Below the pieces are notes generated by a model. It saw only the letters and a program-made list of their open reading frames with translations, made no database searches and was not told the DNA's origin. A stretch of DNA of 64,000 nt from Candidatus Hydrogenedens sp. (lineage in GTDB: Bacteria > Hydrogenedentota > Hydrogenedentia > Hydrogenedentales > Hydrogenedentaceae), in the NCBI GenBank assembly GCA_049968235.1, contig JBMFRC010000012.1:32001-96000 (forward strand), read 5' to 3'. How positions within the stretch are numbered: the first letter of the stretch is position 1; the number at the start of each line of letters is the position of its first letter. The position numbers and the translations under genes are program-made. Positions 1,401 to 19,926 of this stretch are shown in pieces.

Positions 1401-2381
1401 TTAAATAAACATACCTATGACTTCAGCCATGCCTGCATTTACAGGAGGAGTTCCGGCACCAGTTGGGTTTAATGGGTCTTCCGCAACATAACGGATAAAT
1501 TCCACATGCCCATCCATATATAGAACATTGGAACCTCCGGGGATATGATTAAATCCTTCAGGTTTGGTAGAAACATGGTCAAGCATAATCCATACAGAAC
1601 TCTGCGCCTGTGCGGAAGATGCTGGATTATTAATATCTGTAATTAAGAATCTTTCAATACCTTCTCTTAGGCGATATACAGTACTACCACCACCATTACC
1701 ATTACCTGCCGTTACAGTTACATCCTTGTCAACAAGATTAGGCCATTGTGCAGGATTCGCAAAAACAGGAACGAGGGTATTTAGTGCAAGTTCAATAAAT
1801 TGACCGGGTCCGGTTACAGGCTGATTAATTAATGGAGGAACTGCAGGTAGTGTCATCGGATTGTCTGTAGTTTTAGCACGGTCTAAAACCCAGCCGATAT
1901 ATACATAACTTTCGTCTATTGCAGCAGCACCATAGTGTTCGTTAGTGCATAGCCAGCCTGCGGTGTTTTCTCCTGTTGCATCATTAGTAATATCTTTGAT
2001 TGTGCTTTGTGCATCGGATGGACAAAAAATTATTGCCGGATCAGTTAAATATTCCGGATACAAAGTCGTTAAATCGGGACCCATAGCAAGGAATACAGAC
2101 CTTTGAAAAGTGGTGTATGCTGGATTGGCAACATCACAATCTCTATAAATAGGTTGTGAGCCTTCCCTTACGAGAATTCTTGGGAATCTTTCACCTTTTG
2201 ATTCCCCACAATACATTTTGAACACTAATCCCCATTGCTTCAAGTTATTTTGACAACTTGACCTTCTTGCCGCTTCGCGAGCCCTTGCTAACGCAGGCAG
2301 TAAAATAGCAGCAAGAATTCCGATAATAGCAATGACGACTAACAATTCGATTAAAGTAAAACCTTTTTTACTTTTCTTCAT
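1401..2381 (-). CDS. prepilin-type N-terminal cleavage/methylation domain protein, DUF1559 (H-X9-DG) family
   Basis: N-terminus [32 protein letters not shown] is a type IV pilin-like leader plus TM segment. C-terminal [17 protein letters not shown] matches the H-X9-DG motif. This family is massively expanded in PVC bacteria. Confidence 0.8.
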
Positions 2382-5993: not shown

Positions 5994-6022
5994 TTGACAA
6001 GGAGTAAACAGTGTGCTATAAT
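5994..6022 (+). promoter_or_regulatory. sigma70-type promoter of the rex/hnd operon
   Basis: TTGACA (5994-5999), 17-bp spacer, extended -10 TGcTATAAT (6014-6022). This sits in an AT-rich divergent intergenic region about 80 bp upstream of the rex start. Confidence 0.5.
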
Positions 6023-6040
6023 TTGTTCATAAATTCACAA
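6023..6040 (+). promoter_or_regulatory. putative Rex operator 1 (TTGTTCATAAATTCACAA)
   Basis: 18-bp imperfect palindrome resembling the Rex box TTGTGAA-N4-TTCACAA (right half perfect, outer TTGT/ACAA conserved). It abuts the -10 box. Confidence 0.5.
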
Positions 6041-6066
6041 TTATACTTACAGGTAAGTATATAAAT

Positions 6067-6084
6067 TTGTTTGTAAATTCACAA
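6067..6084 (+). promoter_or_regulatory. putative Rex operator 2 (TTGTTTGTAAATTCACAA)
   Basis: Second copy of the same 22-nt direct repeat (20/22 identical to 6022-6043), 44 bp downstream of operator 1, between the promoter and the rex start. Confidence 0.45.
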
Positions 6085-6101
6085 TTAAAAGTATAAAGTA
6101 T

Positions 6102-6797
6102 ATGGTATCTGAGAAAACAGTAGAAAGATTAAGTTTATACCGCCGAATACTTCAACAATTGAGGGTCGAGAGTAAAGAAACTATAATGTCCCATGAACTT
6201 GCGAATATGTTACACATAAAGCCAGCACAGGTACGCAGGGATATTATGCAATTAGGTTATTCAGGAATACCTAATAGTGGTTATAGAATTCGACCTCTTT
6301 TAGAGAGTATTGCAAATTTTTTAGATTCCCCGTTGCCTCAGAGTGCTGTTTTAGTAGGTGTTGGACATTTAGGACTTGCGTTATTGGCTAACTTTGCAGG
6401 ACGATGGAGGCAATTAGCTATTCGTGCCTCTTTTGATAAAGACCCTGCAAAAGTAGGACAGACTTTTCATGGTTGTCGTTGTTATGCTATGTGTGATTTG
6501 CAAAAAGTAATTGCGGAGACAAAAAGTGTAGTAGGCATCCTGGCAATACCGGGTGAAAGTGCCCAATCTGTTTGTGACCTTCTTGTTCAGTCAGGTATTA
6601 GTGGCGTATTAAATTTTTCCCCATTGCGAATTAAAGTGCCTGATAATGTCTTTATAGAACATGTTGACCTTTCCGCTACGTTTGAAAAAGTTTCGTTCTT
6701 TGCAAGAAGAATGAAACATTATGCAGAAGAAGAAAAACGGAAAGTAGAAAATGAAATTACTGAGGGTGAATACGAAACATTAACAACCAATCAATAA
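6102..6797 (+). CDS. rex: redox-sensing transcriptional repressor Rex
   Basis: N-terminal wHTH (KTVERLSLYRRIL) and Rossmann GxGxxG (LVGVGHLGLAL), typical Rex architecture, with an acidic C-terminal tail. It sits at the head of an NADH-linked hydrogenase operon. Confidence 0.85.
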   Translation: MVSEKTVERLSLYRRILQQLRVESKETIMSHELANMLHIKPAQVRRDIMQLGYSGIPNSGYRIRPLLESIANFLDSPLPQSAVLVGVGHLGLALLANFAGRWRQLAIRASFDKDPAKVGQTFHGCRCYAMCDLQKVIAETKSVVGILAIPGESAQSVCDLLVQSGISGVLNFSPLRIKVPDNVFIEHVDLSATFEKVSFFARRMKHYAEEEKRKVENEITEGEYETLTTNQ

Positions 6798-6823
6798 ATA
6801 AAAAATTTTGTAGGAGATAGAAT

Positions 6824-7348
6824 ATGAATGAAGAATCAAAGCATGCGTGTATGGAAGAAGCAAGTGAAGAAGAACTGCTTGCTCGGCTTGATGAAGTAAT
6901 TGCAGAATATAAGGACAAGCCCGGTGCTCTTATTCCTGTTCTGCAGATTGCTCAGGCTATGTTTGGTTATCTACCCGAAAGTGCATTAAAAAAGATTAGT
7001 TTGGGACTGAACAAACCGTATAGTGAAGTTGCAGGTGTGGTAACATTTTACTCATTCTTTTCAACCCAGCCTCGTGGAAAACATATGATTCGTGTCTGTT
7101 TAGGAACTGCTTGTTATGTCCGTGGTGGCAAACAGGTTCTTTCTGCAATTAAGGATAAACTCCATATTGATGTTGGAGAGACCACGAAAGACCGTATGTT
7201 CTCTTTAGAGGTGGCTCGTTGTTTTGGTGCTTGTGGGCTTGCTCCTGCCATTATGGTGGATAACGATGTGCATCAACGGGTAAAACCTGCCCGAATTCAG
7301 GCTATTTTAGACCAGTATTTAGACAAAAACACAGAAAAAAATAAATAA
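6824..7348 (+). CDS. hndA: NuoE-like [2Fe-2S] thioredoxin-fold subunit of bifurcating hydrogenase (HndA)
   Basis: CLGTAC...CFGAC Cys pattern of NuoE/HoxE/HndA; AGGAGA RBS 8 nt upstream; order hndA-hndB-hndC-hydA. Confidence 0.85.
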   Translation: MNEESKHACMEEASEEELLARLDEVIAEYKDKPGALIPVLQIAQAMFGYLPESALKKISLGLNKPYSEVAGVVTFYSFFSTQPRGKHMIRVCLGTACYVRGGKQVLSAIKDKLHIDVGETTKDRMFSLEVARCFGACGLAPAIMVDNDVHQRVKPARIQAILDQYLDKNTEKNK

Positions 7349-7370
7349 GAAATAAATAAGGAGAAAAGCC

Positions 7371-7742
7371 ATGTCAAATATTATTCATTCTCCAGAAGAC
7401 CTTAATGCTTTACGAGAAAAGGCAATTAAGGACATTGAGATTCGTAATTCACATAAAGATTTGGTGATTACTGTTCACATGGGAACATGTGGTATTGCTG
7501 CGGGTGCCAGAGAAGTATTAAAAAATATCATCTCTGAAATTTCTGCTATAGGTATAACCAATGTTACAGTCCGTCAATCTGGATGTGCAGGTCTCTGCGA
7601 CCGTGAACCCATGATTACGGTTACTCATAAATCCTCCGGTTCTGAATATCGTTATGGAAAATTAAACACGGAAAAGATACGAGAAATTGTGAAACAGCAT
7701 ATTGCAGAAGGTAAACCTGTGATGGAATATTTAATTTCCTGA
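7371..7742 (+). CDS. hndB: small [2Fe-2S] ferredoxin-like subunit (HndB-like)
   Basis: 123 aa; HMGTCGIAAGA...CAGLCDREP thioredoxin-like [2Fe-2S] fold; size and position match HndB of tetrameric Hnd hydrogenases. Confidence 0.7.
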   Translation: MSNIIHSPEDLNALREKAIKDIEIRNSHKDLVITVHMGTCGIAAGAREVLKNIISEISAIGITNVTVRQSGCAGLCDREPMITVTHKSSGSEYRYGKLNTEKIREIVKQHIAEGKPVMEYLIS

Positions 7743-7825
7743 TGAAGAAATACAGGGTAAATTCGGATTCCCATAAAGTGGTTGAGATGAACATGTATAG
7801 CAAAATAAGAAAGAATGATATAGAA

Positions 7826-9271
7826 ATGAAAATGAACATATTACATCTATTTCTTATTTTATTTTTATGTTCATCCGCAACCTTTACTGAAATATCTGAT
7901 TGGGAAACCATCTCACTTTCGGATACAGGAGAAGCATTACAAAATCCCGGCATGGGATGGGTATTACATTTTTACGATAATGTTCCTGAAAATTATGGTT
8001 CTAAATTAGCCCCTTCAGATACTGTTGATGAATTCCCTGCCCTTTCAGTTATTTATTTGCGAATAGCATGGTCGTTTTTAGAACCTGAAGAAGGAAAGTA
8101 TAACTGGTCTATATTGGATACTCCTTCTCAACGATGGATTTCTAAAGGGAAACAAATTGCTTTGCGCATTACCTGTAGTGAAACTCCTATTCCATGGGCG
8201 ACACCAAAATGGGTTTATGAAGCAGGAGCCAAAGGTAATTTCTTCATTCCTACCCAGGGGATAAAAGAAAATGGGACACATTGGGAACCCGAATTTGATG
8301 ACCCTGTTTTCTTGGATAAGTTGGATAATTTTTTAGCAGTGTTAGCAAAGAGATATGATGAAAATCCGGAAATAGCCTTCATAGATATGGGTTCATTAGG
8401 AGTGTGGGGAGAAGGTCATGTATGGCATTCCACACAAAAACATATTTCGACGGAAACCATAAAAAAACACATTGATTTGCACATAAAGCACTTTAAAAAC
8501 ACAATAATTGCTCTAAATGATGACCTTATCACAAATGGGCAAAAATTGGATGTAATTCCCGAAGAGAAAAAAGAACTCCTCAATTATGCTATCAAAAATG
8601 GGTTAACACTTCGCGATGATAGTATTCTTGTTCAGGGTGGAGATAATGTATATTTTAGTGCAAGCCTTGCGGAATACTTCTGGCGAAATAGACCTATCAT
8701 TTTAGAATCTGAACATTATGGACCATCAAAGGCTGAAAGGCATTGGGGGGACGGAAGTAAATATTTACAGGCTGTAGAAGATTACCATGCAAGTTATACT
8801 TCTATTCATTGGTGGCCAAGGGAGTTTTTACAAGAAAACAAAGATTTGATAGATAAAATCAATCTTCGTTTGGGGTATCGTATTGTCCCTACCGAAGTTA
8901 AATGGCAAAAGACAGTAAAAATATCCGAGAAAAAATGGGATATATCCTACCGTTGGGCAAATAAAGGAGTGGCACCTTGTTATCGGGATGTATATCCCAT
9001 TATTACATGGAAAGATGAGAAAGGAGGAATTGTTGCTGTTTTTACAGATGAGACATTTAATCTCAAACAATTACCAATAGGGAAGCAGGATGAATTAAAA
9101 GAAATTGAGGTAAAAAAATCTTTTTTTATTCCTTTTTTATTGAAAGAAGGAAATTATACAGTATTCATTTCAGCGGGTTCTATTACGGGCACGCCTGAAA
9201 TTCAATTACCGTTAAACAACACAGACCATGAAAAAAGATATGTTATAGGTAAAGTTAATGTTGTTTTGTGA
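7826..9271 (+). CDS. secreted glycoside-hydrolase-like TIM-barrel protein (DUF4874/DUF4832, GH42-related)
   Basis: Motifs QNPGMGW and WSFLEPEEGKYNW (the W-x-LEP-x-EG-x-Y block of GH42-like/DUF4874 proteins). The track ORF starts at 7742 (overlapping the hndB stop), but a signal peptide MKMNILHLFLILFLCSSA begins at 7826, so that is taken as the start. The gene looks AT-richer than flanking hnd genes. Confidence 0.6.
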   Translation: MKMNILHLFLILFLCSSATFTEISDWETISLSDTGEALQNPGMGWVLHFYDNVPENYGSKLAPSDTVDEFPALSVIYLRIAWSFLEPEEGKYNWSILDTPSQRWISKGKQIALRITCSETPIPWATPKWVYEAGAKGNFFIPTQGIKENGTHWEPEFDDPVFLDKLDNFLAVLAKRYDENPEIAFIDMGSLGVWGEGHVWHSTQKHISTETIKKHIDLHIKHFKNTIIALNDDLITNGQKLDVIPEEKKELLNYAIKNGLTLRDDSILVQGGDNVYFSASLAEYFWRNRPIILESEHYGPSKAERHWGDGSKYLQAVEDYHASYTSIHWWPREFLQENKDLIDKINLRLGYRIVPTEVKWQKTVKISEKKWDISYRWANKGVAPCYRDVYPIITWKDEKGGIVAVFTDETFNLKQLPIGKQDELKEIEVKKSFFIPFLLKEGNYTVFISAGSITGTPEIQLPLNNTDHEKRYVIGKVNVVL

Positions 9272-9342
9272 AAAAAAATATAAAGATATAAATAAAAACT
9301 TCAGAAATGAAGCATACACAAGTTATGGAAAGGAGAAAAAAA

Positions 9343-12300
9343 ATGAGTCCATTTCGAAGTCATGTATTAATCTGTGCAGGTGCAGGATGCGTGGCATCAG
9401 GTTCGATGGAAGTAAGTTCCGCCTTTTCGGAGGCACTTGCCAAACATGGGCTAAATGAAGAAATTCAAGTAGTCCATACAGGATGTTTAGGACCCTGTGC
9501 TATTGGTCCCGTGGTCGTGATTTATCCAGATGCTATTTTTTATCAAGGTGTTAAAACAACAGATGTTGAAGATATTGTTGTTGAGCATCTGTTAAAAGGT
9601 CGGCCTGTTAGTCGCTTGAATTTCAAATCTACTACCACATCACAAATTATTCCTGCACTGCAGGAGATTGGTTTTTTCAAGCAACAGACAAAGATAGTTT
9701 TAAGGAACTGTGGTATTATAGACCCTACAAAAATTGAGGAGTATATTGCGAGAGATGGGTATCAGGCTTTAGCAAAAGTACTGACAAAAATGACTCCACA
9801 GCAGGTAGTAGAAGAAGTGAAAAAATCTGGACTTCGGGGAAGAGGTGGTGCAGGATTCCCAACAGGTATAAAGTGGGAGTTAACTCAAAAAGCCCACGGA
9901 GATAAGAAATATGTTCTTTGTAATGCTGATGAAGGTGACCCGGGCGCATTTATGGACAGAAGTGTTTTGGAAGGTGACCCCCATAGTGTTATTGAAGCTA
10001 TGATTATAGCAGGATATGCCATTGGTTCTGACCAGGGATATATTTATGTTCGAGCAGAATATCCTTTAGCGGTAGAGAGATTAAATATAGCGATAAAGCA
10101 AGCCAGAGAATATGGTTTGTTAGGTAAGAATATTATGGGAACGAATTTTAATTTCGACCTTGAAATACGAATGGGTTCAGGTGCTTTTGTGTGTGGAGAA
10201 GAAACCGCATTGATGCGTTCTATCGAAGGGAAACGCGGAGAACCCAGACCCCGTCCACCGTTCCCTGCATATAAAGGTTTATGGGAAAAACCCAGTTTAT
10301 TAAATAATGTAGAAACCTATGCAAACATCCCTGTAATTATATTAAAAGGTGCTGATTGGTTTGCTTCCATAGGAACAGGTAAAAGTAAAGGAACAAAAGT
10401 GTTTGCCTTAGCAGGTGCTGTAAACAACACAGGATTGGTCGAAATTCCGATTGGTACACCATTAGGTGAAATTATTTATGATATTGGCGGTGGAATTCCG
10501 CGAGGCAAACAATTTAAGGCAGCGCAAATTGGAGGTCCTTCCGGCGGTTGTATTCCAAAACAACATCTGAATGTGCCGGTAGATTACGAGTCATTACAGG
10601 AATTAGGAGCGATTATGGGTTCCGGTGGATTAATTGTTATGGATGAAGACACATGTATGGTCGATATGGCTCGTTTCTTCCTTGACTTTGTTCAGGATGA
10701 GTCATGTGGAAAATGTGTCCCATGCCGGGTCGGAACGAAAAGAATGTTGGAAATTGTGACAAGGATTTGTGAGGGTCGGGGAGAAGAAGGCGATATTGAA
10801 AAACTTATTGAATTAGGACAACAGATTAAAGATGCATCGTTATGTGGATTAGGGCAGACAGCTCCAAACCCTGTTCTTTCTGCAATACGGCACTTCCGTG
10901 ATGAATTTGAAATTCATATTCGTGAACATAAATGTCCGGCGGGTGTCTGTCCATCTCTTGTTCGTGCTCCTTGTATGAGTGCTTGCCCGGCAAATGTTTA
11001 CATTCCGGGTTTTGTCTCATTAATATCTGAAAAACGATATGCGGAAGCACTTCGTGTGCATCGTGACCAGAACCCCTTTGCATCTGTATGTGCCCGTGTG
11101 TGTTTCCATACTTGTGAGGACAAATGTAGAAGAGCTACTCTGGATGAAGCGGTATCCATACGCGGATTGAAGCGATTTATGGTAGAGCAAGAAGTTACAA
11201 TACAACTACCTGAAATTCGTGAAAATGAACAAAATCTTCGCAAAAAGGTGGCTATTATAGGAGCAGGTCCTGCAGGTCTAACCTGTGCTTATTTCCTTGC
11301 ACGATTAGGCTATCAACCCCGTGTTTTTGAATCTGCACCCAGGCCCGGCGGTATGTTAGTTCAAACAATTCCCGCTTATCGGTTACCCCGAGAAGAATTG
11401 GCTCGAGAAATTCGTATGATAGAAAGAATGGGCGTTGTCATAGAAACTGAAAAAGCCTTAGGTCGTGATTTTACATTACAAAGCCTTCGTGATGATGGAT
11501 ATGAGGCTATTTTTCTCGGAATAGGTGCTCCATCAGGTCAAAAATTGAGAATTCCAGGCGAAGATGCGGATGGCGTTGTCGAAGCCATAGACTTCCTTCG
11601 TGAATACAATCTCCGTGGTTCTGTTCCTGTAGGGAAAAATGTTGTTATTATAGGAGGTGGTAATGCAGCTATTGATGCGGCAAGAACTGCCATTCGTTTA
11701 GGAGCAAAAAAAGCAACGATTCTTTACCGCAGAACAAGAGAAGAGATGCCTGCGTATAAAGAAGAGATCGAAGAAGCAGTTAATGAAGGTGTTATTTTAA
11801 AAATGTTAGTAACTCCACTGGAGATTTTGACAGAAAACGGAAAAGTTGTTGGTGTAAAATGTCAACACATGTGGTTAGGAGAATATGACCGTTCCGGTAG
11901 AAGAAGACCTGAAGCCAAAAAGGGTGAAGAACCCTTTGTTGAAGAAGCAGACCAGGTTATTGCAGCAATAGGGCAAACTGTTGATTTAAAACGTTACCTG
12001 GATGGATTAAATGTTAAGTTAACACCTTCTGGTTTCTTGTGGGTAGACCAATTATATGGTCAGACCTCTATTGAATGGTTATTTGCAGGTGGTGATATTA
12101 GTTCAGGTCCTTCTTCCGTAGCAGAAGCAATCGGTGCTGGTGAAAGAGCTGCAGTTGGAATTGATAAGTATCTTACTGGAGAAGAACATGCTTTCTGGCG
12201 CGAACCCTATATGGTAGATACAGAATTTGACCCAGATTCCGACCCGGTAGATTTCCCAAGAGCAAAAATGAAACTTTTACCTGTTGAAAAGAGGGTACAC

Positions 12301-12414
12301 AACTTTAATGAAGTTGAAATCCCGTTTACGGAAACATTAGCGGTAAGAGAGGCACGCCGTTGCTTACGTTGTGATTATCGTGAAACAAAAATAAGTTTAA
12401 ATACACAACAATAA
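9343..12414 (+). CDS. hndC: NuoF-like flavoprotein subunit (HndC) fused to a GltD/NfnB-like NAD(P)H:FAD oxidoreductase domain
   Basis: N-terminal Trx-like [2Fe-2S] (CAGAGC...CLGPC). NuoF core GRGGAGFPTGIKW (FMN) and ESCGKCVPCRVG ([4Fe-4S]). From about 10930: GltD-type Cys clusters (CPAGVCP...CMSACP, CARVCFHTCEDKC) and FAD/NAD(P) fingerprints VAIIGAGPAGL, VVIIGGGNAAID. The track ORF starts at 9307, but AGGAGA sits 8 nt before the ATG at 9343. Confidence 0.8.
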   Translation: MSPFRSHVLICAGAGCVASGSMEVSSAFSEALAKHGLNEEIQVVHTGCLGPCAIGPVVVIYPDAIFYQGVKTTDVEDIVVEHLLKGRPVSRLNFKSTTTSQIIPALQEIGFFKQQTKIVLRNCGIIDPTKIEEYIARDGYQALAKVLTKMTPQQVVEEVKKSGLRGRGGAGFPTGIKWELTQKAHGDKKYVLCNADEGDPGAFMDRSVLEGDPHSVIEAMIIAGYAIGSDQGYIYVRAEYPLAVERLNIAIKQAREYGLLGKNIMGTNFNFDLEIRMGSGAFVCGEETALMRSIEGKRGEPRPRPPFPAYKGLWEKPSLLNNVETYANIPVIILKGADWFASIGTGKSKGTKVFALAGAVNNTGLVEIPIGTPLGEIIYDIGGGIPRGKQFKAAQIGGPSGGCIPKQHLNVPVDYESLQELGAIMGSGGLIVMDEDTCMVDMARFFLDFVQDESCGKCVPCRVGTKRMLEIVTRICEGRGEEGDIEKLIELGQQIKDASLCGLGQTAPNPVLSAIRHFRDEFEIHIREHKCPAGVCPSLVRAPCMSACPANVYIPGFVSLISEKRYAEALRVHRDQNPFASVCARVCFHTCEDKCRRATLDEAVSIRGLKRFMVEQEVTIQLPEIRENEQNLRKKVAIIGAGPAGLTCAYFLARLGYQPRVFESAPRPGGMLVQTIPAYRLPREELAREIRMIERMGVVIETEKALGRDFTLQSLRDDGYEAIFLGIGAPSGQKLRIPGEDADGVVEAIDFLREYNLRGSVPVGKNVVIIGGGNAAIDAARTAIRLGAKKATILYRRTREEMPAYKEEIEEAVNEGVILKMLVTPLEILTENGKVVGVKCQHMWLGEYDRSGRRRPEAKKGEEPFVEEADQVIAAIGQTVDLKRYLDGLNVKLTPSGFLWVDQLYGQTSIEWLFAGGDISSGPSSVAEAIGAGERAAVGIDKYLTGEEHAFWREPYMVDTEFDPDSDPVDFPRAKMKLLPVEKRVHNFNEVEIPFTETLAVREARRCLRCDYRETKISLNTQQ

Positions 12415-12431: not shown

Positions 12432-14204
12432 ATGCCAAAATTAACTATAGATGGAATTCCCGTAGAAGTTCCGGAAGGAACAACAATACTTCAAGCGGCA
12501 AAGCAAATAGGATTAAAAATACCGACACTTTGTTATCTTGAAGAAGTTCAAGCCATCGGTGCCTGTCGTGTTTGCGTTGTTGAAGTTGAAGGAGCACGAA
12601 CTTTGGTCGCTTCTTGTGTTGCTCCTGTTGCGGAAGGAATGAAAGTCCATACAAATTCAAAAAGAGCCCGTGAGGCACGAAAAACAGTTGTAGAATTGTT
12701 ACTATCCGACCATGATGGCGATTGCCAGATTTGTGTTCGAAATGAAGATTGTGAACTTCAGGAATTGGCACGAACACTTGGGATAAAGGAAATTCGCTAT
12801 CAAGGTGAGAAGAGAAAACGGATTGTGGATGAAAGCACTCCCGCTGTTGTTCGTGATACATCGAAATGTGTCTTATGTAGAAGATGTATAACGGTTTGCA
12901 ATGAGGTTCAGGGTGTTGGCGGACTGTTCCCACAAAATCGTGGCTTTGAAACGGTAATAGGTCCCGCATTTTGTAGTGATTTGGATGATGTCGTATGTGT
13001 TCAGTGTGGTCAATGTAGTGCGGTTTGTCCTGTGGGTGCTATTGTAGAAAGAGACCAGATTGCGGATGTCTTTTCTGCATTAGATGACCCGACAAAAACA
13101 GTCGTTGTCCAGACAGCCCCTGCAATTCGTGCCGCATTGGGAGAATGTTTTGGTTTACCACCCGGAACTTTAGTAACAGGGAAGATGGTTACCGCACTTC
13201 GTAGACTGGGTTTCCATGCCGTTTTTGATACTAACTTTGCCGCTGACCTTTGTATTATGGAAGAAGGTACAGAACTGCTAACTCGATTGAAGAAAAAACT
13301 GGTAGATGGGGAGAATATTGCTCTTCCTATGTTTACCAGTTGTTCTCCGGGGTGGATTAAGTTTTTAGAACATTTCTACCCGGATATGATTCCAAATGTA
13401 TCTACATGCAAATCCCCACAGCAAATGTTTGGTGCTATAGCAAAGACCTATTATTCCAAGAAAATTGGTAAGAAACCCGAAGATATTGTTGTTGTTTCTA
13501 TTATGCCCTGTACAGCGAAGAAATATGAACATCAGCGTCCCGAGATGAACAGTTCCGGTGTTCGTGATGTGGACTATGTGCTTACAACGCGTGAATTGGG
13601 TCGGATGATAAAACAGGCAGGCATTGATTTTGTAAATCTACCCGATGACAAGCAAGACTCACCATTAGGACTATCCTCTGGTGCTGCGGATATTTTTGCG
13701 AATACCGGGGGTGTTATGGAAGCGGCAATTCGAACTGTTTATGAAATAGTAACAGGACGCGAATTACCATTCGATGGACTTCATGTTGCTCCTATCGAAG
13801 GATTAGAAGGAATCAAGGAAGCCTCCTTGAAGATAGAAAAATGTGTGCCTGAATGGTCTTTCTTAGAAGGGGCTACCGTAAATGTTGCTGTGGCTCATGG
13901 ATTGGGTAATGCCAGAGCATTAATAGAGCGAGTTCGCTCAGGTGAAAAGGCGTATCACTTTATAGAAATTATGACCTGTCCCGGTGGATGTATTGGTGGA
14001 GGAGGACAACCTCGCTTTACAGATAATTCAGTTCGTCTTGCTCGTATTCAGGCCATATACAAAGAGGATGAAGGGAAACAACTTCGTAAGTCCCATGTAA
14101 ATCCTGACATACAAAAATTGTATAAGGAATTTTTAGGACATCCGAATAGTGAAGTTTCACATCATCTATTACATACGCATTACAATCCGAGAACAAAAGT
14201 ATAA
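12432..14204 (+). CDS. hydA: [FeFe]-hydrogenase catalytic subunit, M3-type (HndD/HydA)
   Basis: N-terminal plant-type [2Fe-2S]; His-ligated [4Fe-4S] (HDGDCQICVRNEDC); two ferredoxin-like CxxCxxCxxxCP motifs; H-cluster motifs L2 MPCTAKKYE and L3 EIMTCPGGCIGGGGQP; L1 is present as FTSCSPGW, which is non-canonical. Confidence 0.9.
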   Translation: MPKLTIDGIPVEVPEGTTILQAAKQIGLKIPTLCYLEEVQAIGACRVCVVEVEGARTLVASCVAPVAEGMKVHTNSKRAREARKTVVELLLSDHDGDCQICVRNEDCELQELARTLGIKEIRYQGEKRKRIVDESTPAVVRDTSKCVLCRRCITVCNEVQGVGGLFPQNRGFETVIGPAFCSDLDDVVCVQCGQCSAVCPVGAIVERDQIADVFSALDDPTKTVVVQTAPAIRAALGECFGLPPGTLVTGKMVTALRRLGFHAVFDTNFAADLCIMEEGTELLTRLKKKLVDGENIALPMFTSCSPGWIKFLEHFYPDMIPNVSTCKSPQQMFGAIAKTYYSKKIGKKPEDIVVVSIMPCTAKKYEHQRPEMNSSGVRDVDYVLTTRELGRMIKQAGIDFVNLPDDKQDSPLGLSSGAADIFANTGGVMEAAIRTVYEIVTGRELPFDGLHVAPIEGLEGIKEASLKIEKCVPEWSFLEGATVNVAVAHGLGNARALIERVRSGEKAYHFIEIMTCPGGCIGGGGQPRFTDNSVRLARIQAIYKEDEGKQLRKSHVNPDIQKLYKEFLGHPNSEVSHHLLHTHYNPRTKV

Positions 14205-14329: not shown

Positions 14330-14725
14330 ATGGAAAATAAAATTATAATGGTCGTTGATGATGATATTGATGTTCAGGATTTCTGTAAAATTGTATTAGG
14401 AAGAGAGGATTATCAGGTTATAACATTTTCCAACTCAGAGAGTGCACTCGAATATTTATCGTCGAACACTCCCTCTGTAATTATTACCGATTTAATGATG
14501 GGTGGAATTGATGAGGGTGTCCAATTTGTTAATAAGATTAGAGGATTCGATAATGAGAAGGCAAAAATTCCAATTATAATGATTACAGGCATAAATTCAA
14601 AATTAGGATATGACATCACTCCCCGTTCCGATGAAGAAAAAAAACAAATGAAAATCGATGAATTTATATCAAAACCTTTAAATCCAAAACAGTTAATAAC
14701 AGCACTAAAAAAAGTAATCAAATAG
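14330..14725 (+). CDS. single-domain response regulator (CheY-like receiver)
   Basis: VVDDD acidic pocket, phospho-acceptor Asp in ITDLMMGG, conserved Lys in ISKPL; 131 aa, no output domain. Confidence 0.75.
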   Translation: MENKIIMVVDDDIDVQDFCKIVLGREDYQVITFSNSESALEYLSSNTPSVIITDLMMGGIDEGVQFVNKIRGFDNEKAKIPIIMITGINSKLGYDITPRSDEEKKQMKIDEFISKPLNPKQLITALKKVIK

Positions 14726-16180: not shown

Positions 16181-17602
16181 ATGTCAGACTACCGAATTGA
16201 AACCGACTTATTGGGTGAAAAAAAGATACCTGCGGATGTCTATTGGGGTATACATACTGCTCGTGCAGTAGAAAATTTTCCTGTTTCCCGACTCTCGGTT
16301 CATTCAGAATTAATCCAATCTTATGGAATTGTAAAACTTGCATGTGCAAAAATAAATTATTCGTTAGGATACTTATTACATCCTCCTGATAAATCATCTG
16401 CCATATTTAACGCTTGCGAAGAAGTAGCAATTGGTAAATGGAATGACCATATTATCGTGGATGCTCTACAGGGTGGAGCAGGAACCAGCACAAATATGAA
16501 TATTAATGAGGTTATTGCCAACCGTGCCCTAGAAATATTGGGCTTACCACGGGCAAAATATGACATTATTTCCCCATTAGATGATATAAATCTTCACCAA
16601 TCGACTAACGATACTTATCCTACCGCCCTGAAACTTGCTACGATAAGGATGTTAAGAAAATTAGAATCAGAAATTATTCTTCTTTTAGAGACATTTCAAA
16701 CACTTGAAAAACAATTTTCGGACATAGTAAAAATTGGAAGGACAGAACTTCAAGATGCAACGCCTATTACATTAGGTAGGGAGATGGGTGCTTATGCAGA
16801 TGCCCTAGTAAGAGACCGTTGGCGTATCTATAAGTGTGAAGAAAGATTGCGAGTAGTTAATTTAGGAGGCACCGCAATAGGAACAGGTTTAGGAGCACCA
16901 AGGGATTATATTTTCCGTGTTGTAGATAATCTGCGAGAGTTATCAAATATCGGTTTTTCGCGAGCAGAAAATTTAGTAGATGCAACTCAAAATCTCGATG
17001 TATTTGGGGAAGTATCAGGTATCATTCGTTCCTATGCCATAACGCTTAATAAAATAGCCAATGATTTGAGACTAATGTCATCCGGACCCGAAGCAGGTCT
17101 CCGTGAAATTCAACTTCCACAATTACAAGCGGGTTCATCTATTATGCCAGGGAAAGTGAACCCTGTTTTGCCTGAAGCGGTATGCCAGGTTGCAATGCTA
17201 ACATTTGGATTCGACCAGATTATCACATATGGCTGTTCTTCCGGAAACCTTGAACTAAATCCTTTTGTCCCTTTGATTGCTCATTGTTTGTTAAATATGA
17301 TTGAAATGTTAACAAATGTAACAAAATTATTTACGGAAAAATGTATTAAAGGAATTTCGCCGAACCGAGAGGTTTGTGTTTCCTATGTGAATAATTCTAC
17401 AGCAACTCTAACCGCACTTATACAGAAGATAGGATATGAAAAAGCATGTATGATTGCTAAAAAAACAAGTAATTTGAAAAAGAGTATTCGAGAAATTGTA
17501 TTGGAAGAAGGAGTTTTGACTCCTGAAGAATTTGATACTCTTTTAAGTCCTGAGTCCGTTTGTAAATTAGGATTTGTTGACACCAGTAATGAGATAGATT
17601 AG
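16181..17602 (+). CDS. aspartate ammonia-lyase / class-II fumarase family lyase
   Basis: Fumarate-lyase signature GSSIMPGKVNPV; N-terminus similar to AspA (DLLGEKKIPADVYWGIHTARA); 473 aa. Confidence 0.8.
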   Translation: MSDYRIETDLLGEKKIPADVYWGIHTARAVENFPVSRLSVHSELIQSYGIVKLACAKINYSLGYLLHPPDKSSAIFNACEEVAIGKWNDHIIVDALQGGAGTSTNMNINEVIANRALEILGLPRAKYDIISPLDDINLHQSTNDTYPTALKLATIRMLRKLESEIILLLETFQTLEKQFSDIVKIGRTELQDATPITLGREMGAYADALVRDRWRIYKCEERLRVVNLGGTAIGTGLGAPRDYIFRVVDNLRELSNIGFSRAENLVDATQNLDVFGEVSGIIRSYAITLNKIANDLRLMSSGPEAGLREIQLPQLQAGSSIMPGKVNPVLPEAVCQVAMLTFGFDQIITYGCSSGNLELNPFVPLIAHCLLNMIEMLTNVTKLFTEKCIKGISPNREVCVSYVNNSTATLTALIQKIGYEKACMIAKKTSNLKKSIREIVLEEGVLTPEEFDTLLSPESVCKLGFVDTSNEID

Positions 17603-17611
17603 GAAGGAAAT

Positions 17612-18865
17612 ATGCTTAGAGCATCACCAAAATCATTTCGACTGCATATTGGTTTTTTTGGTAGAAGGAATGTTGGAAAATCCAGTTTACTTAATGCAAT
17701 TACACGACAAAATGTCTCAATTGTTTCTGAATCCGCAGGAACCACAACAGACCCCGTGGAAAAACCTATGGAACTACTACCTTTAGGTCCTGTTCTATTC
17801 ATTGATACTGCGGGCATTGATGATATAGGTGCTTTAGGAGAATTACGGATACAAAAAACAAGACAAATTTTTGACCGAACCGATGTTGCGGTTGTTGTTA
17901 CAGAAGCCGGTATATGGGGAGAATTTGAGGAAGGCTTGTGTAATGAGTTTAAGTCAAGAAATGTTCCTATCGTAGTTGTGTTTAACAAAGTGGACCTGCA
18001 TGAACCTGATGAAACATTGTGTAATAGGTTGAAAAATGAGAAAATTCTATATGTAAAGACTATTGCATCAAAGCAGGATGGTATTAGTGAACTCAAAAAT
18101 GCACTTATTTCTTCAGCCCCCGATGATTTTATAAATAGTCCAACGATTTTAGGAGATTTGGTAGCTCCTGGTGAATTGGCTGTGCTTGTCGTGCCTATAG
18201 ATAAAGAAGCACCTAAAGGAAGACTTATTATGCCTCAGGTTCAATCCATCCGTGATTTGTTAGATAACGATGCTATGTGTGTTGTCGTAAAAGAAAGAGA
18301 ACTCCGGCGAATTTTAGAACAATTAAAAATTCTTCCAAAGATTGTTGTTACTGATTCCCAGGCATTCTTAAAAGTCGTCGCAGATACTCCTTCCAATGTA
18401 TGGGTTACAAGTTTTTCAATATTATTTTCAAGATTCCGCGGAGATTTAATTACACAGGTGGAAGGAACACTTGCTATCGAATCATTGAAACCCGGAGATA
18501 AAATACTTATTGCAGAATCATGCTCGCATCACCCTATTGCCGATGATATAGGAAGGGTTAAAATACCAAGATGGTTAATGCAATATATCGGTGGAAAATT
18601 AGAATTTGATACTGTTCAGGGAAATGATTTTTTTTCAGATTTAACAAAATATAAAATGGTTATACACTGTGGAGCATGCACACTCAATCGCCGTGCTATG
18701 TTAAATCGTATTATGCATTGCAAAAAACAAGGGATACCAATAAGTAATTACGGGTTAACTATAGCCTATTCTTTAGGTATCCTCGAAAGGGCATTAGAAC
18801 CATTCCCATCCGCATTGGAAATATATAAACAGAAAACAACAAAAAAGTTGCAAAACATTAAATAA
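17612..18865 (+). CDS. hydF: [FeFe]-hydrogenase maturation GTPase HydF
   Basis: G1 GRRNVGKSS; C-terminal CSHHP...HCGAC Fe-S binding motif characteristic of HydF; 417 aa. Confidence 0.85.
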   Translation: MLRASPKSFRLHIGFFGRRNVGKSSLLNAITRQNVSIVSESAGTTTDPVEKPMELLPLGPVLFIDTAGIDDIGALGELRIQKTRQIFDRTDVAVVVTEAGIWGEFEEGLCNEFKSRNVPIVVVFNKVDLHEPDETLCNRLKNEKILYVKTIASKQDGISELKNALISSAPDDFINSPTILGDLVAPGELAVLVVPIDKEAPKGRLIMPQVQSIRDLLDNDAMCVVVKERELRRILEQLKILPKIVVTDSQAFLKVVADTPSNVWVTSFSILFSRFRGDLITQVEGTLAIESLKPGDKILIAESCSHHPIADDIGRVKIPRWLMQYIGGKLEFDTVQGNDFFSDLTKYKMVIHCGACTLNRRAMLNRIMHCKKQGIPISNYGLTIAYSLGILERALEPFPSALEIYKQKTTKKLQNIK

Positions 18866-18873
18866 AATAAAAC

Positions 18874-19926
18874 ATGGATAAAAAAAATATTATTAATTGG
18901 CTTCGTGAAAAAAACGAAGATAAATTAAACGAACTATGGGAATTGGCGGATTCTATCCGCAGTAAATATGTAGGAGAAGAGGTGCATCTTCGAGGTTTGA
19001 TAGAAATATCAAACTATTGCAAAAAAAACTGTCTATACTGTGGAATACGAATTTCTAATAGAAAATTAACCCGATATAGAATGGAAGACAGCGAGATTTT
19101 GGAATGTGTGGAATTTGCCAAAAGAAATGGCTATGGAACAATAGTCCTTCAATCCGGCGAAGACCCCGATTTTACAAAAGAAAAAATCGCCGAATTAATT
19201 AGAAAAATAAAAGAAAATGCAAATGTGGCTATTACATTAAGTTTAGGAGAGCAGGAAAAACACACATTAGAATTATGGAAATCTGCCGGAGCCAATCGTT
19301 ATCTTCTTCGTTTTGAAACCTCAGATGAAATCCTATTTAAAAGAATCCATTCGTCAGAACAAGCAAAAAGTTTAGAGAATAGAATTAAACAACTAAAAAT
19401 ACTTAAACAATTAGGCTACGAAGCAGGAAGTGGGATAATGATTGGAATACCCTATCAAACTTATGAAAGCATCGCTAATGATATCCTACTTTTCAAACAA
19501 TTAGACCTTGATATGATAGGAATAGGACCATACATTCCTCATCCCGATACACCTTTAGGACAGGAATATCTTAATAAATATAAAAAAGATGATGAAAAAT
19601 TTGTCCCAAACACAGAATTAATGACATATAAAGTCCTTGCATTAACCCGAATTATATGTCCAACCGTAAACATTCCTGCCACCACTGCCCTTGCAACTGT
19701 GAATACACGAGAAGGTCGCATTTTAGCCCTGAAGAGGGGAGCCAATGTTATCATGCCGAATCTCACTCCACCAAAATATAAAAAATTGTATGAAATTTAT
19801 CCAGGTAAATCGTCTGCTGATGAACCTCCAGAAATTATTCATCAAAGTATAATGAAGATTATAGAAAAGGCAGGAAGAAAAGTAGGAACAGGGATGGGAA
19901 ATCGCAAAAAAATCATAGATATTTAA
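18874..19926 (+). CDS. hydE: [FeFe]-hydrogenase radical SAM maturase HydE
   Basis: CKKNCLYCGI CxxxCxxC; BioB-like length (350 aa); sits in the hydG-hydF-hydE cluster. Confidence 0.9.
   Translation: MDKKNIINWLREKNEDKLNELWELADSIRSKYVGEEVHLRGLIEISNYCKKNCLYCGIRISNRKLTRYRMEDSEILECVEFAKRNGYGTIVLQSGEDPDFTKEKIAELIRKIKENANVAITLSLGEQEKHTLELWKSAGANRYLLRFETSDEILFKRIHSSEQAKSLENRIKQLKILKQLGYEAGSGIMIGIPYQTYESIANDILLFKQLDLDMIGIGPYIPHPDTPLGQEYLNKYKKDDEKFVPNTELMTYKVLALTRIICPTVNIPATTALATVNTREGRILALKRGANVIMPNLTPPKYKKLYEIYPGKSSADEPPEIIHQSIMKIIEKAGRKVGTGMGNRKKIIDI

What the first reader, a model, noticed from the sequence alone, without database searches (positions are those of the whole stretch)
13335..13412. 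HydA carries a non-canonical H-cluster L1 motif TSCSPGW (second Cys replaced by Ser) and a nearby extra Cys
Read directly from codons 13335-13355: ACC AGT TGT TCT CCG GGG TGG = T-S-C-S-P-G-W. The canonical [FeFe]-hydrogenase L1 is TSCCPxW, where the first Cys is the proton-relay residue and the second ligates the [4Fe-4S]H subcluster. L2 (MPCTAKKYE) and L3 (EIMTCPGGCIGGGGQP) are canonical, and the alignment around L1 is ungapped (..MFTSCSPGW..KSPQQMFG..). So the [4Fe-4S]-ligating position appears to be Ser. About 20 residues on, a Cys appears (VSTCKSPQQ; TGC at 13407-13409) where prototypical enzymes have small residues near the proton-path Ser. Either the relay Cys has shifted to serve as ligand, or the new Cys compensates. 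Both cases would alter proton transfer and H-cluster electronics. A sequencing error is the alternative.
Basis: partly seen in the sequence, partly recalled or inferred. Interest (0 to 1): 0.65.

Follow-up and report, generated by a model that had tools for sequence, protein, structure and literature searches.

The report
Known serine variant of hydrogenase motif
The hydrogen-producing enzyme gene really does carry a serine where textbook enzymes have an iron-binding cysteine. This is a common natural variant, already solved in the active Acetobacterium woodii enzyme, and the "extra" cysteine nearby is an ordinary residue found in standard enzymes too.

Summary
The reading is correct. Window 13335-13355 encodes TSCSPGW in a 590-aa [FeFe]-hydrogenase HydA (12432-14204, +), and TGC at 13407-13409 is a Cys 22 residues after the relay Cys. 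It is not an error. 113 of the 120 closest database homologues and 70 of 82 hydA genes in 80 species-level genomes have Ser there, using all six Ser codons.

It is not new either. The best PDB match, A. woodii HydA1 (7Q4V), has the same TSCSPGW...SSCKSPQ. Its authors report Ser301 replacing a Cys ligand of the H-cluster cubane in an active enzyme with normal FTIR signatures. An earlier paper cites Ser at this position in about 20% of sequences; I find 27 of 123 (22%) among diverse representatives.

The "extra" Cys is not compensatory:
- It is the commonest residue at that position in canonical TSCCP enzymes (53 of 94).
- It is present in C. reinhardtii HydA1 and in HDCR HydA2.
- It is Ala in 6 of 25 TSCSP representatives.

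The proton-pathway residues, L2, L3 and the maturase genes hydG, hydF and hydE are all intact.

Context: a conserved hydC / hydB::gltD / hydA operon, probably from Hydrogenedentota. This complex type has been annotated but, in what I read, not characterised biochemically.

Verdict: observation confirmed, interpretation only partly supported, already known, low interest.

The parts
12432..14204 (+). hydA: 590-aa M3-type [FeFe]-hydrogenase catalytic subunit (2Fe-2S, His-ligated 4Fe-4S and 2x4Fe-4S domains, H-domain, C-terminal small-subunit-like tail)
   Evidence: Pfam Fer2_4, NADH-G_4Fe-4S_3, Fer4, Fe_hyd_lg_C (1e-98) and Fe_hyd_SSU. NCBIfam NF040763 scores 907 bits against a cut-off of 765; TIGR02512 scores 533 against 406. 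PDB 7q4v_A matches at E = 2.5e-194.
13335..13355 (+). L1 motif TSCSPGW (T302-W308)
13341..13343 (+). Cys304 (TGT): proton-relay Cys, equivalent to CpI C299, A. woodii C300 and CrHydA1 C169 (C114 in mature numbering)
   Evidence: Ungapped alignments. This column is Cys in 153 of 157 aligned sequences.
13344..13346 (+). Ser305 (TCT): at the [4Fe-4S]H ligand position, equivalent to CpI C300, T. kivui C299 and A. woodii Ser301
   Evidence: The closest relatives use TCT or TCC for Ser here.
13401..13403 (+). Ser324: proton-pathway Ser (CpI S319 equivalent), 20 residues after the relay Cys
   Evidence: Alignment to CpI and position count. The role is assigned from established knowledge of the CpI pathway.
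13407..13409 (+). Cys326 (TGC): the 'extra' Cys at +22, equivalent to CpI A321, A. woodii C322 and CrHydA1 C191 (C136 in mature numbering). A common residue that is not needed as a ligand.
13257..13286 (+). MEEGTELLTR: carries the equivalents of CpI E279, E282 and R286 of the proton-transfer pathway, all conserved
   Evidence: Alignment to CpI; coordinates
13503..13529 (+). L2 motif MPCTAKKYE (Cys360 ligand; Lys363 is the CpI K358 equivalent)
13965..14012 (+). L3 motif EIMTCPGGCIGGGGQP (Cys516 and Cys520 ligands)
9307..12414 (+). hydB::gltD: 1035-aa fusion. N-terminal thioredoxin-like 2Fe-2S domain, NuoF-like FMN/NADH module, then a GltD/NfnB-like module (Fer4_20, FAD site GAGPAG, second dinucleotide site GGGNAA) where the usual HydB C-terminal ferredoxin domain would be.
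   Evidence: Pfam, NCBIfam, motifs. The fusion lies directly upstream of hydA in about 60 related loci.
6824..7348 (+). hydC: NuoE-like thioredoxin-like [2Fe-2S] subunit
   Evidence: Pfam 2Fe-2S_thioredx at 1.9e-51. A hydC homologue is found in 69 related loci, in nearly all of them just upstream of hydB::gltD.
6102..6797 (+). rex-like redox-sensing regulator gene upstream of hydC
   Evidence: Pfam Put_DNA-bind_N plus CoA_binding; found in 17 related loci
14330..14725 (+). Receiver-only response regulator between hydA and hydG
   Evidence: Pfam Response_reg; also present in L006 and L066
14778..16175 (+). hydG maturase
   Evidence: TIGR03955, 540 bits against a cut-off of 312
17612..18865 (+). 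hydF maturase GTPase
   Evidence: TIGR03918, 557 bits against a cut-off of 326
18874..19926 (+). hydE maturase
   Evidence: TIGR03956, 331 bits against a cut-off of 255

Best explanation
The gene encodes a functional group-A [FeFe]-hydrogenase catalytic subunit of the multimeric HydABC kind. It belongs to the natural subclass in which the second Cys of the L1 motif, one of the four ligands of the H-cluster [4Fe-4S] subcluster, is Ser (TSCSPGW). By homology with A. woodii HydA1, which has the same motif and a solved structure, Ser305 sits in the ligand position and takes the place of the thiolate, most simply as a serinate O-ligand. Cys360, Cys516 and Cys520 supply the other three ligands. Cys304 keeps its role as the last proton-relay residue next to the diiron site. 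Cys326 is a bystander that many canonical enzymes also have. Shown here: the motif, its conservation, its recurrence, its independence from the +22 Cys, and the intact proton pathway and maturase genes. Taken from the literature: Ser at the ligand position in an active enzyme with ordinary H-cluster infrared signatures. Inferred: that the same holds for this protein, and that Ser may shift the cubane potential.
For: - The best PDB match, 7q4v_A (A. woodii HydA1, E = 2.5e-194), shows TSCSPGWIKF...SSCKSPQ aligned without gaps to the window's TSCSPGWIKF...STCKSPQ.
- Katsyv et al. 2023 (PMC10021017) state that a Cys ligand of the A1 cubane (Cys299 in T. kivui) is replaced by Ser301 in A. woodii. 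[quoted passage not shown]
- Ser is conserved in 113 of 120 closest homologues, 70 of 82 hydA genes in 80 genomes, and 58 of 61 hydA genes with a hydB::gltD neighbour.
- All six Ser codons are used. AGY codons are confined to one clade and TCN codons to another. A TSCCP clade (L024, L025, L028) sits nested inside the Ser clade. Together these indicate an old, recurrent Cys/Ser exchange.
- No other Cys column is enriched in Ser-type sequences.
- The relay Cys, the E/E/R/S proton-pathway residues, L2 and L3 are intact. hydG, hydF and hydE are adjacent.
Against: - No structure or spectroscopy exists for this protein. The Ser-O-Fe bond in A. woodii rests on a cryo-EM model that I could not inspect, because no coordinates or supplement were available.
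- The engineered equivalent in C. reinhardtii HydA1 (C115S) nearly abolishes cubane binding and activity. Ser is therefore not tolerated in every scaffold, and the features that make it work here are not identified. The only local correlate I found is Gly at motif position 6.
Confidence: 0.8

Rival explanations
1. Three-Cys cubane: the fourth Fe is bound by water or hydroxide, or is left open, and Ser305 only hydrogen-bonds to it. Ser marks the position but is not a true ligand.
For: Kertess et al. point out that solvent coordination may explain cluster stability in Ala variants at other ligand positions. They also note that protonation and dissociation of a serinate is a known complication. 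The A. woodii model is a cryo-EM model whose coordinates and supplement I could not inspect, so the Fe-O bond is unverified here.
Against: The authors of the A. woodii structure describe Ser301 as the ligand. Strict conservation of Ser, with no Ala, Gly or Thr at this column in the genomic loci (S 86, C 71, nothing else), argues that the hydroxyl is needed.
Confidence: 0.12
2. Cys326 (+22) has taken over as the fourth thiolate ligand of the cubane.
For: Cys326 co-occurs with TSCSP in this protein, in A. woodii HydA1 and in most close relatives.
Against: - The same Cys is present together with canonical TSCCP in C. reinhardtii HydA1 and T. kivui HDCR HydA2 and in 53 of 94 TSCCP representatives.
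- TSCSP occurs with Ala at +22 in 6 of 25 representatives. It also does so in intact genes of three Synergistaceae genomes and one more locus, all with normal L2 and L3.
- The association is not significant (p = 0.11).
- The A. woodii authors assign Ser, not Cys322, as the replacement.
Confidence: 0.04
3. The relay Cys304 has shifted to ligate the cubane. The canonical proton relay is then lost and the enzyme is slow or sensory.
For: Kertess et al. suggest the neighbouring Cys could substitute as a ligand in a C115A mutant.
Against: - The whole proton pathway (equivalents of E279, E282, R286 and S319) is conserved with Cys304.
- Sensory-type enzymes in related loci look different: TACPA in place of TSCCP, plus a histidine-kinase fusion.
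Confidence: 0.03
4. Sequencing or assembly error (TCT in place of TGT), or a decaying pseudogene.
For: TCT and TGT differ by a single transversion.
Against: - Independent assemblies at 96, 94, 91 and 91% protein identity all encode Ser here, with TCT or TCC.
- 70 of 82 related genes use six different Ser codons.
- The ORF is intact and full length, with all other motifs present.
Confidence: 0.01

Closest known systems
Acetobacterium woodii HydA1 of the electron-bifurcating HydABC(D) hydrogenase (PDB 7Q4V, 7Q4W, 8A5E; Katsyv et al. 2023, PMC10021017)
   Same: Same M3 domain architecture over residues 6-589 (E = 2.5e-194). Same TSCSPGW L1 motif with Ser at the cubane-ligand position. Same Cys at +22 (SSCKSPQ against STCKSPQ). 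Canonical L2 and L3. Partnered with NuoF-like HydB and NuoE-like HydC.
   Different: The partner HydB here carries a C-terminal GltD/NfnB-like FAD/NAD(P)H module, where HydB is described as carrying two C-terminal [4Fe-4S] clusters. The organism is an uncultured, probably Hydrogenedentota, bacterium. No biochemistry exists for this protein.
Thermoanaerobacter kivui HydA1 (PDB 8A6T) and Clostridium pasteurianum CpI (e.g. 4XDC)
   Same: Same fold and cluster complement. Ungapped alignment through L1 and KSPQQ. Same proton-pathway residues.
   Different: Both have TSCCP (Cys ligand) and Ala at +22.
Chlamydomonas reinhardtii HydA1 (PDB 3LX4, 2N0S) and its C115S mutant (Kertess et al. 2017, PMC5855289)
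   Same: The H-domain has the same +22 Cys (VSSCKSPQ). The C115S mutant is the engineered version of the substitution seen here.
   Different: The wild type has TSCCPGW. The engineered Ser variant loses most of the cubane and all measurable activity, whereas natural TSCSP enzymes are active. The scaffold must therefore differ in ways not yet identified.
Trimeric [FeFe]-hydrogenase with an enlarged GltD-containing beta subunit, noted in the Vallitalea guaymasensis L81 genome (PMC6163223); HydDB groups A2/A3 (PMC5037454)
   Same: Same gene organisation: HydC, then HydB with a GltD domain after the FMN/NADH domain, then HydA. The authors suggest a second NAD(P)H site.
   Different: Known only from annotation, with no enzymology found in the library searched. 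HydDB would file it under A3 because NuoF is present.
Sporomusa-type Nfn transhydrogenase StnABC (PMC7483475, PMC10482914)
   Same: Combines NuoE-like, NuoF-like and GltD-like modules from the same toolkit. A GxGxxA site in the GltD-like part is proposed there to bind NADP(H); the window has GGGNAA.
   Different: In Stn the GltD module is fused to a NuoG-like subunit, and no hydrogenase activity was detected with methyl viologen as acceptor. Here GltD is fused to HydB, and HydA has a complete H-cluster site.

Membership tests
[FeFe]-hydrogenase, group A (catalytic H-domain) | H-domain profile matches above curated cut-offs (Pfam Fe_hyd_lg_C; TIGR02512 FeFe_hydrog_A) | tested here: met
   PF02906 at 1.1e-98. 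TIGR02512 scores 532.6 bits against a cut-off of 405.95.
[FeFe]-hydrogenase, group A (catalytic H-domain) | L1 motif TSCCPxW with relay Cys and ligand Cys | tested here: inconclusive
   The relay Cys is present and the ligand Cys is Ser (TSCSPGW). This departs from the textbook motif. The same variant occurs in about 22% of representatives and in an active, solved enzyme, so it does not exclude membership.
[FeFe]-hydrogenase, group A (catalytic H-domain) | L2 (MPCxxKxxE) and L3 (ExMxCxxGCxxGGGQP) motifs supplying the other three cubane ligands | tested here: met
   MPCTAKKYE and EIMTCPGGCIGGGGQP
[FeFe]-hydrogenase, group A (catalytic H-domain) | Conserved proton-transfer pathway (CpI E279, E282, R286, S319, C299) | tested here: met
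   All five equivalents are present in the alignment to CpI (coordinates).
[FeFe]-hydrogenase, group A (catalytic H-domain) | H-cluster maturases HydE, HydF and HydG encoded in the genome | tested here: met
   TIGR03955, TIGR03918 and TIGR03956 are all above cut-off, 0.6-5.7 kb downstream of hydA.
[FeFe]-hydrogenase, group A (catalytic H-domain) | H2 oxidation or evolution activity with an assembled H-cluster | not testable with these tools
   Requires purified protein.
NCBIfam NF040763, 'NADH-dependent [FeFe] hydrogenase, group A6' | Full-length score above the curated cut-off | tested here: met
   907.2 bits against a cut-off of 765, covering profile positions 2-571 of 571. Close homologues carry this name in NCBI records.
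HydABC-type (NuoEF-linked, potentially electron-bifurcating) multimeric hydrogenase | Adjacent NuoF-like HydB with FMN/NADH and N-terminal 2Fe-2S domains | tested here: met
   Complex1_51K, SLBB, NADH_4Fe-4S and 2Fe-2S_thioredx in the gene ending 17 bp upstream of hydA.
HydABC-type (NuoEF-linked, potentially electron-bifurcating) multimeric hydrogenase | NuoE-like HydC subunit | tested here: met
   6824-7348, PF01257 at 1.9e-51. It is separated from hydB by one inserted gene in this lineage but adjacent in most related loci.
HydABC-type (NuoEF-linked, potentially electron-bifurcating) multimeric hydrogenase | HydB C-terminal [4Fe-4S] clusters, discussed in the Stn paper as the candidate ferredoxin-binding region | tested here: not met
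   After the NuoF core comes a GltD-like module (Fer4_20 plus Pyr_redox_2) rather than the C-terminal [4Fe-4S] clusters described for HydB. This is therefore a variant of HydABC, not the A. woodii or T. maritima type.
HydABC-type (NuoEF-linked, potentially electron-bifurcating) multimeric hydrogenase | Electron bifurcation (H2 to NAD+ plus ferredoxin) | not testable with these tools
   Requires enzymology.
Natural Ser-ligand (TSCSPGW) subclass exemplified by A. woodii HydA1 | Ser at the L1 ligand column in an otherwise complete H-cluster site | tested here: met
Natural Ser-ligand (TSCSPGW) subclass exemplified by A. woodii HydA1 | Ser Ogamma actually bound to a cubane Fe | not testable with these tools
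   The tools return no coordinates, and the supplement of PMC10021017 is not held.
Putative sensory [FeFe]-hydrogenase (HydS, groups C/D) | Relay Cys replaced, plus PAS or kinase signalling domains | tested here: not met
   The relay Cys304 is present and no signalling domain is found. True sensory-type genes in related loci have TACPA and a histidine-kinase fusion.

The most novel reading that the evidence does not exclude
The Ser ligand may be an adaptive tuning device rather than a neutral curiosity. It is fixed in 58 of 61 hydA genes that sit next to a hydB::gltD fusion, in genomes labelled with many different phyla. It arose or toggled more than once (TCN and AGY codon clades, nested Cys revertants). 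It is coupled to Gly at motif position 6. Yet the same substitution destroys the cubane in C. reinhardtii HydA1. On this reading a co-adapted pocket uses an O-ligand to shift the [4Fe-4S]H potential, and hence catalytic bias, to match a flavin/NAD(P)H-linked electron chain. The hydC / hydB::gltD / hydA complex would then be an uncharacterised hydrogenase type with two pyridine-nucleotide sites: NADH at the FMN and NADPH at the GltD FAD.
Probability: 0.25. Interest if true: 0.45.

Novelty: already known. Interest (0 to 1): 0.18.

Why it matters
For the scan, this entry can be closed. The motif is a documented natural variant, not an error and not a new active-site chemistry.

Two points remain open. 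First, nobody has explained why Ser works at this ligand position in natural enzymes when the engineered C115S in the algal enzyme fails, or whether it shifts the cubane potential or catalytic bias. Second, the widespread hydC / hydB::gltD / hydA complex, almost always of the Ser type, has been annotated but, in the papers I could search, never characterised. It could link H2 to both NADH and NADPH pools in many uncultured anaerobes.

Tried and rejected
- Sequencing error: rejected on conservation and codon diversity.
- Compensating +22 Cys: rejected from a survey of 150 representatives below 50% identity, 80 genomic loci and the PDB sequences.
- A hidden alternative Cys specific to Ser-type enzymes: I scanned every alignment column for residues enriched in TSCSP sequences. 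No Cys column emerged. Only Gly307 (motif position 6) and a few probably phylogenetic positions such as Ala390 stood out. These statistics are not corrected for phylogeny.
- Sensory hydrogenase reading: rejected.
- Structure modelling: not run. Structure prediction returns no coordinates and AlphaFold places no cofactors, so it cannot say which residue reaches the cubane. An experimental structure with the same motif already exists.
- The supplement of Katsyv et al. (Fig. S4i) is not held.
- Literature searches for 'TSCSP' found only the 2013 Melainabacteria paper as a hydrogenase mention. The key statements came from searches on HydABC and on ligand mutants.
- The NJ tree is a rough distance tree. 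I use it only for the nesting of the three TSCCP loci and for the codon clades.
Full report
OBSERVATION. The window reads ACC AGT TGT TCT CCG GGG TGG at 13335-13355. In the frame of the 590-aa ORF 12432-14204(+) this is T302-S303-C304-S305-P306-G307-W308. TGC at 13407-13409 is Cys326, inside STCKSPQ. The ORF is a complete M3-type [FeFe]-hydrogenase. It carries Fer2_4, NADH-G_4Fe-4S_3, ferredoxin-like 4Fe-4S domains, Fe_hyd_lg_C (1e-98) and Fe_hyd_SSU. It scores above the curated cut-offs of TIGR02512 ([FeFe] hydrogenase group A) and NF040763 ('NADH-dependent [FeFe] hydrogenase, group A6', 907 bits against 765). L2 (MPCTAKKYE) and L3 (EIMTCPGGCIGGGGQP) are canonical. The alignments to CpI, T. 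kivui HydA1 and A. woodii HydA1 are ungapped from L1 through KSPQQ. Ser305 therefore falls on CpI Cys300 and Cys304 on CpI Cys299.

NOT AN ERROR.
- Of the 120 closest database homologues (76-94% identity), 113 have Ser at this position and 111 have exactly TSCSPGW.
- In 80 species-representative genomes fetched with the protein, 70 of 82 hydA genes have Ser there. The codons are TCG 39, TCT 9, AGC 8, TCC 6, TCA 6 and AGT 2.
- The four closest independent assemblies (96, 94, 91 and 91% identity) encode Ser with TCT or TCC.
- AGY codons are confined to one clade (L057, L059, L061-L065, plus L068 and L069) and TCN codons to the large clade that contains the window.
- TCN and AGY are two substitutions apart, and Cys (TGY) is one of the two single-step intermediates. 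A small TSCCP clade (L024, L025, L028) is nested within the Ser clade in a rough NJ tree. The Cys/Ser exchange at this column is therefore old and has happened more than once.

ALREADY KNOWN. The best match among solved structures is A. woodii HydA1 of the electron-bifurcating HydABC complex (7q4v_A, E = 2.5e-194). Its sequence reads TSCSPGWIKF...SSCKSPQ, the same motif and the same downstream Cys. The paper describing that structure (Katsyv et al. 2023, PMC10021017) makes three relevant statements. One of the Cys ligands of the A1 cubane (Cys299 in T. kivui) 'is replaced by a serine residue (Ser301Aw)'. [quoted passage not shown] Kertess et al. 2017 (PMC5855289), citing Winkler et al. 2013, note that Ser is present at this position in about 20% of analysed putative hydrogenase sequences. 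My own count among the 150 best representatives of clusters below 50% identity is 27 of 123 motifs, or 22%. TSCSPGW was also remarked on in Melainabacteria hydrogenases in 2013.

THE 'EXTRA' CYS. The residue 22 positions after the relay Cys (CpI Ala321) is Cys in most of this part of the family, whatever the L1 motif.
- Among representatives with TSCCP it is C 53, A 20, T 11, S 7 and V 3. Among those with TSCSP it is C 19 and A 6. The association is not significant (Fisher p = 0.11).
- C. reinhardtii HydA1, a prototype with a four-Cys cubane, has TSCCPGW...VSSCKSPQ. T. kivui HDCR HydA2 has TSCCPAW...ISTCKSPQ.
- Conversely, intact genes with TSCSPGW and Ala at +22, with normal L2 and L3, occur in three Synergistaceae genomes and in a second gene of L068.
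- A column-by-column scan found no Cys enriched in Ser-type sequences.
So Cys326 is neither new nor needed to replace the missing thiolate.

RELAY FUNCTION. The equivalents of CpI E279, E282, R286 and S319 are all present together with Cys304. The relay column is Cys in 153 of 157 aligned sequences. [quoted passage not shown] It is therefore unlikely that the relay Cys has been diverted to bind the cubane.

MOST LIKELY MECHANISM. Ser305 occupies the fourth ligand position of [4Fe-4S]H, most simply as a serinate. The other ligands are Cys360 (L2) and Cys516 and Cys520 (L3), one of the L3 Cys bridging to the diiron site as in all family members. Protons arrive through the R/E/S/E/Cys304 pathway. 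I put this at about 0.8. The main rival, at about 0.12, is a three-Cys cubane with solvent on the fourth Fe and Ser only hydrogen-bonding. Sequence cannot separate these two. I could not inspect the cryo-EM model: no coordinates are available through these tools and the supplement is not held.

One genuine puzzle remains. The engineered equivalent in C. reinhardtii HydA1 (C115S in mature numbering; C114 is the neighbouring relay Cys) loses most of the cubane and has no measurable activity. Natural Ser-type scaffolds must therefore differ in some way. The only local correlate I found is Gly at motif position 6: 24 of 27 TSCSP against 37 of 96 TSCCP representatives (p = 2e-6, uncorrected for phylogeny). 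All seven TSCCP sequences among the 120 closest homologues have Ala there (TSCCPAW). A smaller residue may let the backbone move closer to the cluster to accommodate the shorter C-O and Fe-O bonds. That last step is inference only.

CONTEXT. hydA is preceded, 17 bp upstream, by a 1035-aa gene (9307-12414). This gene fuses a HydB-like unit (thioredoxin-like 2Fe-2S domain, NuoF FMN/NADH module, NADH_4Fe-4S) to a GltD/NfnB-like module (Fer4_20 and Pyr_redox_2). The GltD part has a GAGPAG FAD site and a GGGNAA second site. A GxGxxA site of this kind is proposed to prefer NADP(H) in the Stn paper.

A NuoE-like hydC (6824-7348) and a rex-like gene (6102-6797) lie further upstream. The hydC / hydB::gltD / hydA order is conserved in about 60 of the 80 related loci. 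The record titles of those loci name many phyla: Hydrogenedentota, Planctomycetota, Verrucomicrobiota, Lentisphaerota, Spirochaetota, Bacteroidota, Bacillota and others. 58 of the 61 GltD-linked hydA genes are of the Ser type. Downstream come a receiver-only response regulator, hydG, an aspartate-ammonia-lyase-like gene, hydF and hydE.

The closest genomes (91-96% identity) are unnamed MAGs, one labelled Nitrospirales and one labelled Candidatus Hydrogenedens, and many close homologues are labelled Hydrogenedentes. The window is therefore probably from Hydrogenedentota.

A HydB with a GltD domain in a trimeric hydrogenase has been noted in a genome paper, with the suggestion of a second NAD(P)H site (PMC6163223). 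I found no enzymology for it in the library searched. HydDB rules would call it group A3 because NuoF is present.

COMPARISON AND MEMBERSHIP. The protein is a member of group-A [FeFe]-hydrogenases and of NF040763. It belongs to the natural Ser-ligand subclass exemplified by A. woodii HydA1. Its complex works like a HydABC enzyme but differs from the A. woodii and T. maritima type in one feature I tested: a GltD-like module follows the NuoF core where HydB is described as carrying C-terminal [4Fe-4S] clusters. It is not a sensory hydrogenase. Real sensory-type genes occur next to hydA in seven related loci. In the one I read in full (L008) the L1 equivalent is TACPA and a histidine kinase is fused to the C-terminus.

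VERDICT. Ser is at the ligand position. It is not novel, the nearby Cys does not compensate for it, and it is not an error. The feature is already known. Interest is low (0.18). The residual value lies in the unexplained tolerance of Ser in natural scaffolds and in the uncharacterised GltD-fused complex.

Noticed in passing
window 9307-12414 (+), with 6824-7348 and 12432-14204: hydB is fused to a GltD/NfnB-like FAD/NAD(P)H module (second dinucleotide site GGGNAA at 11653) where HydB is described as carrying C-terminal [4Fe-4S] clusters. The hydC / hydB::gltD / hydA operon is conserved in about 60 related loci whose record titles name many phyla. It appears to be annotated but not characterised biochemically.
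   Followed up: partly
window 7742-9271 (+): A 509-aa gene with weak Glyco_hydro_42 and DUF4832 matches sits between hydC and hydB::gltD. It is found there only in the window and its four closest relatives (L006, L044, L047, L066). In the other loci hydC lies a short distance upstream of hydB::gltD, with no room for such a gene. It looks like a lineage-specific insertion into the operon.
   Followed up: partly
window 16181-17602 (+): An aspartate-ammonia-lyase-like gene (NF008909, 629 bits against a cut-off of 510) is wedged between hydG and hydF. The same placement next to maturase genes recurs in L006, L044, L066, L068 and L079. A role in H-cluster maturation, for example supplying nitrogen, is a lead I did not test.
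   Followed up: no
window 14330-14725 (+); L008 7953-9971 and 10050-10469: A receiver-only response regulator follows hydA. In seven related loci (L008, L009, L012, L016, L019, L023, L067) a sensory-type H-domain protein sits between hydA and a similar regulator; the L008 copy has TACPA in place of TSCCP and a C-terminal histidine kinase. The window has the regulator but no such sensor gene anywhere in its 64 kb.
   Followed up: partly
window 6102-6797 (+): A Rex-like redox-sensing repressor gene (Put_DNA-bind_N plus CoA_binding) lies directly upstream of hydC and recurs in 17 related loci. This suggests NADH/NAD+-responsive control of the hydrogenase operon.
   Followed up: no
related loci L024, L025, L028 (Verrucomicrobiota and Kiritimatiellaeota MAGs), hydA at 6001-7746: These GltD-linked hydA genes have TSCCP(G/A)W and sit nested inside the otherwise all-Ser clade in a rough NJ tree. 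They look like natural Ser-to-Cys revertants and would be useful for comparison.
   Followed up: partly
window 65-1198 (+) and 1401-2381 (-): A di-haem cytochrome c peroxidase gene, and a gene with an N-terminal methylation motif plus DUF1559, lie at the left end of the window. Not examined further.
   Followed up: no
representative protein P0121 (4122 aa): The top hit of the representative search is a 4122-aa protein with seven matched stretches to HydA. It could be a multi-copy fusion or an assembly or gene-calling artefact. Not examined.
   Followed up: no
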